Shown: positions 39,051 to 39,077 of the stretch, one piece after another | Layout of the letters: every line of letters begins with the position of its first letter | How positions within the stretch are numbered: the stretch's first letter is position 1 | IMG/VR virus record: IMGVR_UViG_2721755676_000008 | Span: 1 to 40,917 of that record | Reading direction: 5' to 3' (one strand) | Length of the DNA stretch: 40,917 nucleotides | Origin: a virus | Taxonomy: Duplodnaviria; Heunggongvirae; Uroviricota; Caudoviricetes | The notes under the pieces: generated by a model | Told to the model about the DNA's origin: nothing | The model's database searches: none | The model's input: the letters and a program-made list of their open reading frames with translations, nothing else | Position numbers and translations under genes: made by a program

Positions 39051-39077
39051 TAAAGATTTTTTTGTGCATGCCGATAG
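39051..39077 (+). promoter_or_regulatory. Sigma-28 (FliA)-type promoter upstream of flxA
   Basis: TAAAGATT - 11 bp - GCCGATAG against consensus TAAAGTTT-N11-GCCGATAA (one mismatch per element), about 24 bp upstream of the flxA start. Confidence 0.6.

What the first reader, a model, noticed from the sequence alone, without database searches (positions are those of the whole stretch)
39051..39077. Near-consensus sigma-28 promoter drives the flxA-like gene next to the integrase
TAAAGATT-N11-GCCGATAG is one mismatch per element from the FliA consensus, placing a prophage gene under the host flagellar/motility sigma factor. The protein (Lys/Glu-rich, coiled-coil-like) has no known function. It lies on the plus strand like the early-left operon but has its own promoter and terminator.
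Basis: partly seen in the sequence, partly recalled or inferred. Interest (0 to 1): 0.4.

Follow-up and report, generated by a model that had tools for sequence, protein, structure and literature searches.

The report
Known FliA promoter of prophage flxA
This is the already-characterised flagellar sigma-factor (FliA/sigma-28) promoter of the E. coli prophage gene flxA, here in an intact lambdoid prophage, so the finding is correct but ordinary; the protein's function is still unknown.

Summary
It lies 23 nt upstream of the ATG of a 110-aa ORF (39101-39433) that has an AGGAG ribosome-binding site. It is the only match in the window at up to 2 mismatches; 0.03 are expected by chance.

The ORF is flxA itself. 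It hits Pfam PF14282 and differs from E. coli K-12 FlxA by 2 residues. The promoter is base-for-base identical to the K-12 Qin-prophage flxA promoter. For that exact 28-mer, published work shows FliA ChIP-seq binding, RNA-seq expression of 280 falling to 2 in a fliA deletion, a 28-fold drop on microarrays, and sigma-28 genomic SELEX binding. FliA dependence was first reported in 1997.

What I add:
- flxA sits in a 1018-bp promoter-gene-terminator cassette (38674-39691) between the excisionase and integrase genes. The cassette is shared at 98.9% identity with Qin.
- A sigma-28 motif lies upstream of flxA-like genes in 12 of 12 divergent lineages. These include chromosomal copies in Pantoea and Enterobacter at a conserved lysV-flxA-yfeR locus.
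- The phage therefore most likely captured a host flagellar-regulon gene together with its promoter.

The parts
38674..39691 (+). flxA cassette (promoter, gene and terminator plus about 380 bp of upstream sequence) shared with the K-12 Qin prophage
   Evidence: blastn of the window against the K-12 Qin locus L001: 38674-39691 matches L001 5875-6892 at 98.9% over 1018 bp, with no flanking homology. It starts 57 bp after the excisionase stop codon and ends 2 bp before the integrase stop codon.
39030..39050 (+). A/T-rich block immediately upstream of the -35 element; possible UP-element-like sequence
   Evidence: Partly conserved (TAAT.A.A...GAAATA.TA) among four lineages whose FlxA proteins are only 63-69% identical, while surrounding sequence diverges (alignment A4). 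Its function is inferred, not tested.
39051..39058 (+). sigma-28 (FliA) -35 element TAAAGATT
   Evidence: Identical in K-12. It is the same -35 octamer as the E. coli flgMN class 3 promoter in Table 2 of PMC4183435.
39059..39069 (+). 11-nt spacer TTTTTGTGCAT
   Evidence: An 11-nt spacer is kept in all 12 flxA-family lineages examined.
39070..39077 (+). sigma-28 (FliA) -10 element GCCGATAG
   Evidence: The CCGATA core is invariant in the four-lineage alignment. Eleven of the 12 lineages have GCCGATA and one has ACCGATA.
39083..39087 (+). Predicted transcription start region, giving a leader of about 15-18 nt
   Evidence: Inference only. It rests on the usual distance of start sites from the sigma-28 -10 element (general knowledge) and was not mapped here.
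39090..39094 (+). Shine-Dalgarno AGGAG, 6 nt before the ATG
   Evidence: Read from the sequence.
39101..39433 (+). flxA coding sequence, 110 aa
   Evidence: ORF list. PF14282 FlxA, E 1.9e-14. PHROG 11044, E 1.5e-71, unknown function. Annotated flxA in RefSeq E. coli genomes. The AlphaFold2 model gives disordered ends and a helical hairpin, residues 24-42 and 50-86.
39448..39470 (+). Intrinsic terminator of flxA: GTGGCCC-TCATC-GGGCCAC followed by TTTT
   Evidence: RNA fold -17.3 kcal/mol, z = -2.6. A permissive hairpin-plus-T-tract scan finds it as the only candidate site between flxA and int (five nested stem variants at 39448-39466). The stricter consensus scan missed it because the tail has only 4 T. 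It is 100% conserved in K-12.
38423..38617 (+). Context: excisionase gene, last gene of the + strand early-left operon before the cassette
   Evidence: PHROG 1553 excisionase, E 2.3e-35, with weak HTH_17/MerR Pfam hits.
39694..40917 (-). Context: tyrosine integrase, convergent with flxA
   Evidence: Pfam Phage_integrase, Arm-DNA-bind_3 and Phage_int_M. PHROG 1 integrase.

Best explanation
The site is the FliA (sigma-28) class-3-type promoter of flxA.

RNA polymerase carrying the host flagellar sigma factor recognises TAAAGATT-N11-GCCGATAG. It starts transcription a few bases downstream of 39077 and makes a monocistronic mRNA of about 390 nt. That mRNA carries a short leader with AGGAG, the 110-aa flxA ORF, and a hairpin-plus-U terminator at 39448-39470.

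Because FliA is held inactive by FlgM until the hook-basal body is complete, flxA should be expressed in the lysogen together with flagellin, motor and chemotaxis genes. This expression is independent of the prophage's own lytic/lysogenic circuitry.

The promoter, gene and terminator form a 1-kb autonomous cassette (a 'moron') between xis and int, and the same cassette sits in the defective Qin prophage of K-12. flxA-like genes with a sigma-28 promoter at the same position are also chromosomal in other Enterobacterales. The phage lineage therefore most likely acquired a host flagellar-regulon gene together with its native promoter.

Shown, for the identical K-12 sequence and in the literature: FliA binding and FliA-dependent expression. 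Shown here: sequence identity, cassette boundaries, terminator, and family-wide promoter conservation. Inferred: the exact start site, FlgM-gated timing in this lysogen, and the direction of gene capture.

The protein's role is unknown. My best guess is a small helical-hairpin accessory protein of the late flagellar programme, possibly exported through the flagellar type III apparatus. My confidence in that guess is low (about 0.15).
For: - Exact motif and position, unlikely by chance.
- 100% identity of the promoter, leader and terminator to K-12 flxA, and 98.9% over the whole 1018-bp cassette.
- Published data for that exact 28-mer: FliA ChIP-seq peak with FAT score 16 and RNA-seq 280 versus 2 in the fliA deletion (PMC4183435); microarray -28.4x and +8.2x (PMC1935009); sigma-28 SELEX site (PMC5493296); co-variation with flagellar genes in other transcriptomes (PMC9068703).
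- The 70-nt promoter region is present in 1198 of 5426 complete E. coli genomes and is at least 99% identical in 1104 of 1201 records.
- Phylogenetic footprint: a spacer-11 sigma-28 motif with at most 4 mismatches lies within 120 nt of the ATG in 12 of 12 distinct flxA-family lineages (protein identity to the query down to about 25-35%). The -10 element ends 18-32 nt before the ATG. The background rate is 0.004 per 120-nt window, from 10 hits in 242 kb. One Pantoea ananatis copy has the perfect consensus. The TCAAG and TCAAC -35 variants seen in the chromosomal copies are also used by the ChIP-seq-mapped E. coli FliA promoters of flgKL, modABC and fliLMNOPQR.
- No sigma-70-like promoter on the + strand near flxA.
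- Terminator fold.
Against: - Nothing was measured in this particular lysogen. FliA dependence is transferred from K-12 on the basis of sequence identity.
- No terminator was found between xis (ends 38617) and the promoter. During prophage induction flxA could therefore also be transcribed by read-through, so the sigma-28 promoter need not be the only source of flxA mRNA.
- The start site is not mapped here.
- The G at the last -10 position and the A at -35 position 5 are departures from consensus. They are tolerated in K-12.
Confidence: 0.95

Rival explanations
1. flxA is mainly a distal gene of the prophage early-left operon (cI-side promoter through yfdP/yfdQ/yfdR and xis to flxA). On this view the sigma-28 motif contributes little in this phage.
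For: flxA is on the same strand as yfdQ, yfdR and xis. No hairpin-plus-T-tract terminator was found between 38600 and 39100 on the + strand, even with permissive criteria.
Against: In K-12 the identical promoter accounts for essentially all flxA mRNA (280 versus 2 in the fliA deletion). In a repressed lysogen the early-left operon is off. The cassette, with its promoter, is kept intact in different upstream contexts: relBE-ydfV in Qin and in phage PhiR42_1, xis here. Read-through during induction may add to sigma-28 transcription but would not replace it.
Confidence: 0.04
2. The motif is a chance resemblance with no promoter activity.
For: Sixteen specified bases with two mismatches can arise by chance. 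Three of 100 shuffles of the window gave one such match.
Against: The motif has the correct strand and distance to an SD-ATG. Its sequence is identical to an experimentally bound and FliA-dependent promoter. The elements, but not the spacer or flanks, are conserved in 12 of 12 divergent homologous loci.
Confidence: 0.01

Closest known systems
flxA promoter of the E. coli K-12 Qin prophage (b1566; Ide & Kutsukake 1997; Fitzgerald et al. 2014)
   Same: The 28-nt FliA motif, leader, SD, terminator and about 380 bp of upstream sequence are identical or 99% identical. The gene product is the same apart from R68W and K84E.
   Different: Genomic setting. Here the cassette lies between an excisionase and an intact 407-aa integrase. 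The element is an apparently complete lambdoid prophage, and its closest relative (strain CH4799) is integrated next to yjjG. In K-12 the cassette lies between relBE-ydfV and the integrase remnant ydfW in the defective, rearranged Qin element.
Canonical class 3 flagellar promoters (fliC, tar, flgMN, motAB, tsr)
   Same: Same architecture: TAAAGTTT-like -35, 11-nt spacer, GCCGATAA-like -10. The -35 octamer TAAAGATT is the one used by flgMN. The dependence on FliA is comparably strong.
   Different: The gene it drives is prophage-borne. According to the title of Ide & Kutsukake 1997 it is dispensable for motility development.
Phage 'morons' (autonomous promoter-gene-terminator insertions in lambdoid prophages, for example lambda bor and lom)
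   Same: Own promoter, single gene and own terminator, expressed from the repressed prophage. The homology boundaries are sharp and the same cassette is present in different phage backbones.
   Different: It uses an alternative host sigma factor rather than sigma-70, so expression is tied to the host motility programme. The G+C content (about 40-42%) is only slightly below that of its neighbours.
Chromosomal flxA-like genes of Pantoea, Enterobacter and related bacteria (PF14282)
   Same: Same Pfam family and same architecture: Ser/Thr/Gly-rich N-terminus, Gln/Lys/Glu-rich helical core, and a C-terminal (I/V)D(I/V)Y(I/V). A sigma-28 motif lies 18-32 nt upstream of the ATG.
   Different: Only 25-37% identical to the window protein. 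They sit in a conserved core locus, valU-valX-valY-lysV tRNAs, flxA-like, yfeR, yfeH, ypeB, ligA, and not in a prophage. E. coli K-12 has xapRBA-yfeN in that slot and no flxA-like sequence.

Membership tests
FliA (sigma-28) dependent promoter | -35 element resembling TAAAGTTT | tested here: met
   TAAAGATT, 7 of 8.
FliA (sigma-28) dependent promoter | -10 element resembling GCCGATAA, separated from the -35 element by 11 nt | tested here: met
   GCCGATAG, 7 of 8, spacer exactly 11 nt.
FliA (sigma-28) dependent promoter | Correct strand and distance upstream of a translatable gene | tested here: met
   The -10 element ends 23 nt before the ATG at 39101, with AGGAG in between.
FliA (sigma-28) dependent promoter | FliA holoenzyme binding in vivo or in vitro | not testable with these tools
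   Published for the identical K-12 sequence: ChIP-seq (PMC4183435) and genomic SELEX (PMC5493296). Identity was verified.
FliA (sigma-28) dependent promoter | Loss of expression in a fliA mutant | not testable with these tools
   Published for K-12: 280 versus 2 and -28.4-fold. Not measured for this lysogen.
FliA (sigma-28) dependent promoter | Conservation of the elements, but not of spacer or flanks, among orthologous loci | tested here: met
   12 of 12 lineages have the motif, against a background of 0.004 per 120-nt window.
FlxA protein family (Pfam PF14282) | Score above the Pfam gathering threshold | tested here: met
   54.1 bits against a cutoff of 26.3, profile positions 2-96 of 101.
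FlxA protein family (Pfam PF14282) | Orthology with E. coli K-12 FlxA (b1566) | tested here: met
   Three nucleotide differences in the CDS, giving 2 amino-acid changes. RefSeq annotates the matching gene as flxA.
Phage moron | Own promoter and own terminator flanking a single gene inside a prophage | tested here: met
   Promoter 39051-39077, terminator 39448-39470. Prophage context.
Phage moron | Present or absent as a discrete block among related phages, with sharp homology boundaries | tested here: met
   The 1018-bp block is shared with Qin and the flanks are unrelated. Only 1 of 50,697 phage records carries the gene.
Phage moron | Expression from the repressed prophage that benefits the lysogen | not testable with these tools
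   Expression in K-12 lysogens is documented. No fitness effect is known.

The most novel reading that the evidence does not exclude
FlxA is not a phage invention. It would be an ancestral, chromosomally encoded member of the enterobacterial late-flagellar (sigma-28) regulon. It would have been captured, promoter included, by a lambdoid phage lineage, and in E. coli it would survive only as the prophage copy.

Several observations are compatible with FlxA being a substrate of the flagellar type III export apparatus, or a modulator of the flagellum:
- a disordered N-terminus;
- a helical-hairpin core;
- a family-conserved C-terminal (I/V)D(I/V)Y(I/V) motif;
- a report of opposite mRNA and protein changes when flagellar export is impaired at 42 C (PMC6551532; the direction is not stated there).

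A prophage might carry such a gene to alter motility or to change susceptibility to flagellum-dependent phages.
Probability: 0.15. Interest if true: 0.5.

Novelty: already known. Interest (0 to 1): 0.12.

Why it matters
The promoter itself adds nothing new. flxA has been a documented FliA-dependent, non-flagellar gene since 1997 and appears in every E. coli FliA regulon map.

Two modest points come out of this check.

First, sigma-28 control is a property of the whole FlxA family, chromosomal orthologues included. Selection has therefore kept this small protein in the late-flagellar programme across Enterobacterales, although it is dispensable for motility in the laboratory. That makes it a reasonable candidate for a missing accessory function of the flagellum.

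Second, it is a clean example of a prophage moron wired to an alternative host sigma factor, so that a prophage gene is expressed only in motile cells.

Tried and rejected
- **Protein function from structure or sequence.** The AlphaFold2 model (pLDDT 64.5; core 74-88) is a generic helical hairpin. Foldseek against the PDB gave no hit at E <= 0.001, only designed or generic helical bundles. A profile search of PDB sequences hit only designed coiled coils. PADLOC gave no hit. PHROGs placed it in an unknown-function family. No function could be assigned.
- **RNA families.** The Rfam E-value search of 38400-39750 found nothing, so the 380 bp upstream of the promoter and the minus-strand promoter-like site remain unexplained.
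- **Related loci.** The search for related loci on genome contigs returned only 5 loci. Deeper sampling needed the representative search, a profile search and contig look-ups.
- **Compositional signature.** G+C composition did not set the cassette clearly apart from its neighbours.
- **Papers not available.** Yu et al. 2006 (PMC1698183) is not held. The supplement of PMC6551532 is not held, so the direction of the FlxA protein/mRNA discordance could not be read.
- **Chance match.** Considered and rejected.
- **Sigma-70 promoter.** No + strand sigma-70-like site is near flxA.

Full report
**Observation.** On the + strand, 39051-39058 reads TAAAGATT, 39059-39069 is an 11-nt spacer (TTTTTGTGCAT) and 39070-39077 reads GCCGATAG. 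That is one mismatch per element against TAAAGTTT-N11-GCCGATAA. It is the only such site on either strand of the 40,917-bp window. Dinucleotide-preserving shuffles give 0.27 matches per window at up to 3 mismatches and 0.03 at up to 2 mismatches. Downstream on the same strand come AGGAG (39090-39094), ATG (39101) and a 110-aa ORF ending at 39433. A 7-bp GC-rich hairpin followed by TTTT lies at 39448-39470, with a fold energy of -17.3 kcal/mol and z = -2.6.

**What the gene is.** The ORF hits Pfam PF14282 (FlxA) at 54.1 bits against a gathering score of 26.3, and PHROG 11044, an unknown-function family. Megablast of 38800-39700 finds the region in 1203 of 5426 complete E. coli genomes at 95-100% identity, annotated flxA. 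Against E. coli K-12 the promoter, leader, Shine-Dalgarno sequence and terminator are identical. The CDS differs at three positions, which gives R68W and K84E. The gene is therefore flxA itself (b1566 in K-12, Qin prophage).

**What is already known.**
- Fitzgerald et al. 2014 (PMC4183435) list exactly TAAAGATTTTTTTGTGCATGCCGATAGT as a FliA ChIP-seq site (FAT score 16). Normalised flxA expression is 280 in motile MG1655 and 2 in the fliA deletion, marked significant. They call flxA one of the few well-characterised FliA promoters with no obvious flagellar function.
- Zhao et al. 2007 (PMC1935009) report -28.4-fold in a fliA deletion and +8.2-fold five minutes after FliA induction.
- Shimada et al. 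2017 (PMC5493296) find a sigma-28 holoenzyme SELEX site between ydfV and flxA.
- flxA rises and falls with flagellar genes in unrelated transcriptomes.
- It was still classed as uncharacterised in 2024 (PMC11551758).

**Context in this window.** The window is an apparently complete lambdoid prophage. Its closest relative in the RefSeq set (strain CH4799) lies next to yjjG and carries lambda-like head and tail genes, lysis genes, a Q antiterminator, replication genes and an immunity region. In the window a cI-like repressor (35077-35769, +) faces a cro-like gene (34719-34979, -). The + strand then carries DUF2303/yfdQ (36900-37724), an HD-domain yfdR homologue (37825-38388) and an excisionase (38423-38617; PHROG 1553, E 2.3e-35). 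flxA follows on the same strand. The tyrosine integrase (39694-40917) is on the - strand, convergent with flxA.

Homology with K-12 Qin is confined to 38674-39691 (1018 bp, 98.9% identity). It starts 57 bp after the xis stop codon and ends 2 bp before the int stop codon. In K-12, and in the one phage record out of 50,697 that carries the gene (PhiR42_1), the same block is preceded by relBE instead. flxA is thus a discrete promoter-gene-terminator cassette, in other words a moron.

I found no + strand terminator between xis and the flxA promoter, even with permissive criteria. Read-through during prophage induction cannot be excluded.

**Is sigma-28 control a quirk of this copy or a property of the family?** An exhaustive phmmer search of 1.84 billion representatives finds only 49 relatives. 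Profile searching and contig look-ups place them in three groups.
- Prophage-type copies at 86-100% identity in Escherichia, Shigella, Salmonella and Enterobacter.
- Copies about 63-69% identical to the window protein, in non-prophage or IS-flanked contexts (L007, L009, L013).
- Copies at 25-37% identity in Pantoea, Enterobacter and relatives. These always sit in one core locus: gltX, tRNA-Val x3, tRNA-Lys, flxA-like, yfeR, yfeH, ypeB, ligA.

A further copy in Pantoea ananatis, 54% identical, lies near an integrase and an IS element. E. coli K-12 has xapRBA-yfeN in the core-locus slot, and tblastn finds no flxA-like sequence there.

In 12 of 12 distinct lineages a spacer-11 sigma-28 motif with at most 4 mismatches lies within 120 nt of the ATG, and its -10 element ends 18-32 nt before the start codon. 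The rate elsewhere in the same loci is 10 hits in 242 kb, or 0.004 per 120-nt window. The P. ananatis copy has the perfect consensus. Among the four prophage-type and about 63-69% lineages, the alignment keeps TAAA and CCGATA while the spacer and flanks diverge. The TCAAG and TCAAC -35 variants of the chromosomal copies are the ones used by the ChIP-seq-mapped E. coli FliA promoters of flgKL, modABC and fliLMNOPQR.

Sigma-28 dependence is therefore ancestral to the family. The simplest history is that a phage captured the gene with its promoter. The direction of transfer is an inference.

**Mechanism.** FliA-RNA polymerase binds 39051-39077 and initiates at about 39083-39087 (inferred). It transcribes a monocistronic message of about 390 nt that ends at the 39448-39470 terminator. 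FliA is sequestered by FlgM until the hook-basal body is complete (established knowledge of the flagellar hierarchy). flxA should therefore behave as a class 3 gene, on in motile lysogens and off in non-flagellated cells, independently of the prophage repressor.

**The protein.** FlxA contains 12% Lys, 11% Gln, 11% Thr and 10% Glu, with no Cys, Trp, His or Phe. AlphaFold2 on a 15-sequence alignment gives a disordered N-terminus (residues 1-21), a helical hairpin (24-42 and 50-86, pLDDT 74-88) and a disordered C-terminus. The family alignment shows a conserved terminal (I/V)D(I/V)Y(I/V). Structure and sequence searches give no informative relatives.

There is one lead. [quoted passage not shown] The direction is not stated and the supplement is not held. 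Together with the disordered N-terminus, this is compatible with export through the flagellar type III system. I put that at about 0.15.

**Verdict.** The novelty class is 'already known'. The interest is low (0.12), and what there is comes from the family-wide promoter conservation and the chromosomal lysV-flxA-yfeR locus, which make the unknown function of FlxA somewhat more tractable.

Noticed in passing
L014-L017 and L020-L025 (for example L016 3497-4342): Distant flxA-like genes (25-37% identity) in Pantoea, Enterobacter and relatives always sit just downstream of a tRNA-Lys gene (the tRNA-Val x3/tRNA-Lys cluster where that flank is held; tolB-pal-cpoB plus a single tRNA-Lys in L024) and before yfeR-yfeH-ypeB-ligA. 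Each has its own sigma-28 motif. E. coli K-12 has xapRBA-yfeN in that slot and no flxA-like sequence.
   Followed up: yes
window 38942-38969 (- strand) and 38626-38641 (- strand): A near-consensus sigma-70-like promoter (TTGACA-16-AATAAT, 11 of 12) points leftward inside the flxA cassette. A terminator-like hairpin lies about 300 nt downstream on the same strand. This could be a short transcript antisense to the 3' end of the early-left operon. There is no Rfam match, and the annotated ydfV-like ORF overlaps it on the other strand.
   Followed up: partly
window 38618-39050 (+ strand): No intrinsic terminator was found between the excisionase stop codon and the flxA promoter. flxA may therefore also be transcribed by read-through from the early-left operon when the prophage is induced.
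   Followed up: partly
window 39030-39050: The A/T-rich block just upstream of the -35 element is partly conserved (TAAT.A.A...GAAATA.TA) in four lineages whose proteins are only 63-69% identical. It could be an UP element or a second regulator's site.
   Followed up: partly
window 33630-33717 (-) and 33742-33818 (-): Rfam gathering-score matches to C4 antisense RNA (82.8 bits) and to isrK Hfq-binding RNA (63.7 bits), lying inside or next to a 382-aa ORF on the - strand of the early-right region.
   Followed up: no
window 381-579 (-): Full-length Rfam match to IS009 RNA (223.6 bits) near the tail-fibre end of the prophage.
   Followed up: no
window 38423-40917: The excisionase and integrase genes are not adjacent or co-oriented as in lambda. 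The 1-kb flxA cassette separates them, and int is transcribed convergently towards flxA. No terminator-like hairpin was found for int on the - strand between 39700 and 39430.
   Followed up: partly
phage record PV340562.1 (L027 4493-5333): Only one of 50,697 phage records carries flxA: Escherichia phage PhiR42_1 from ECOR13. It has the Qin-type relBE-ydfV-flxA arrangement followed by transposase genes. The cassette is thus common in E. coli prophages (22% of genomes) but almost absent from sequenced phages.
   Followed up: partly
proteins P0131 (3361 aa) and P0146 (2729 aa): Two very large proteins contain 17 and 7 stretches matching FlxA residues about 8-50, so the N-terminal part of FlxA resembles a repeat unit of giant proteins.
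   Followed up: no
hit H4, NZ_CP148466.1 (E. coli Z1323CEC0006): In this strain flxA is split by an IS1A insertion and is annotated as two FlxA-like fragments, which is consistent with the gene being dispensable.
   Followed up: no
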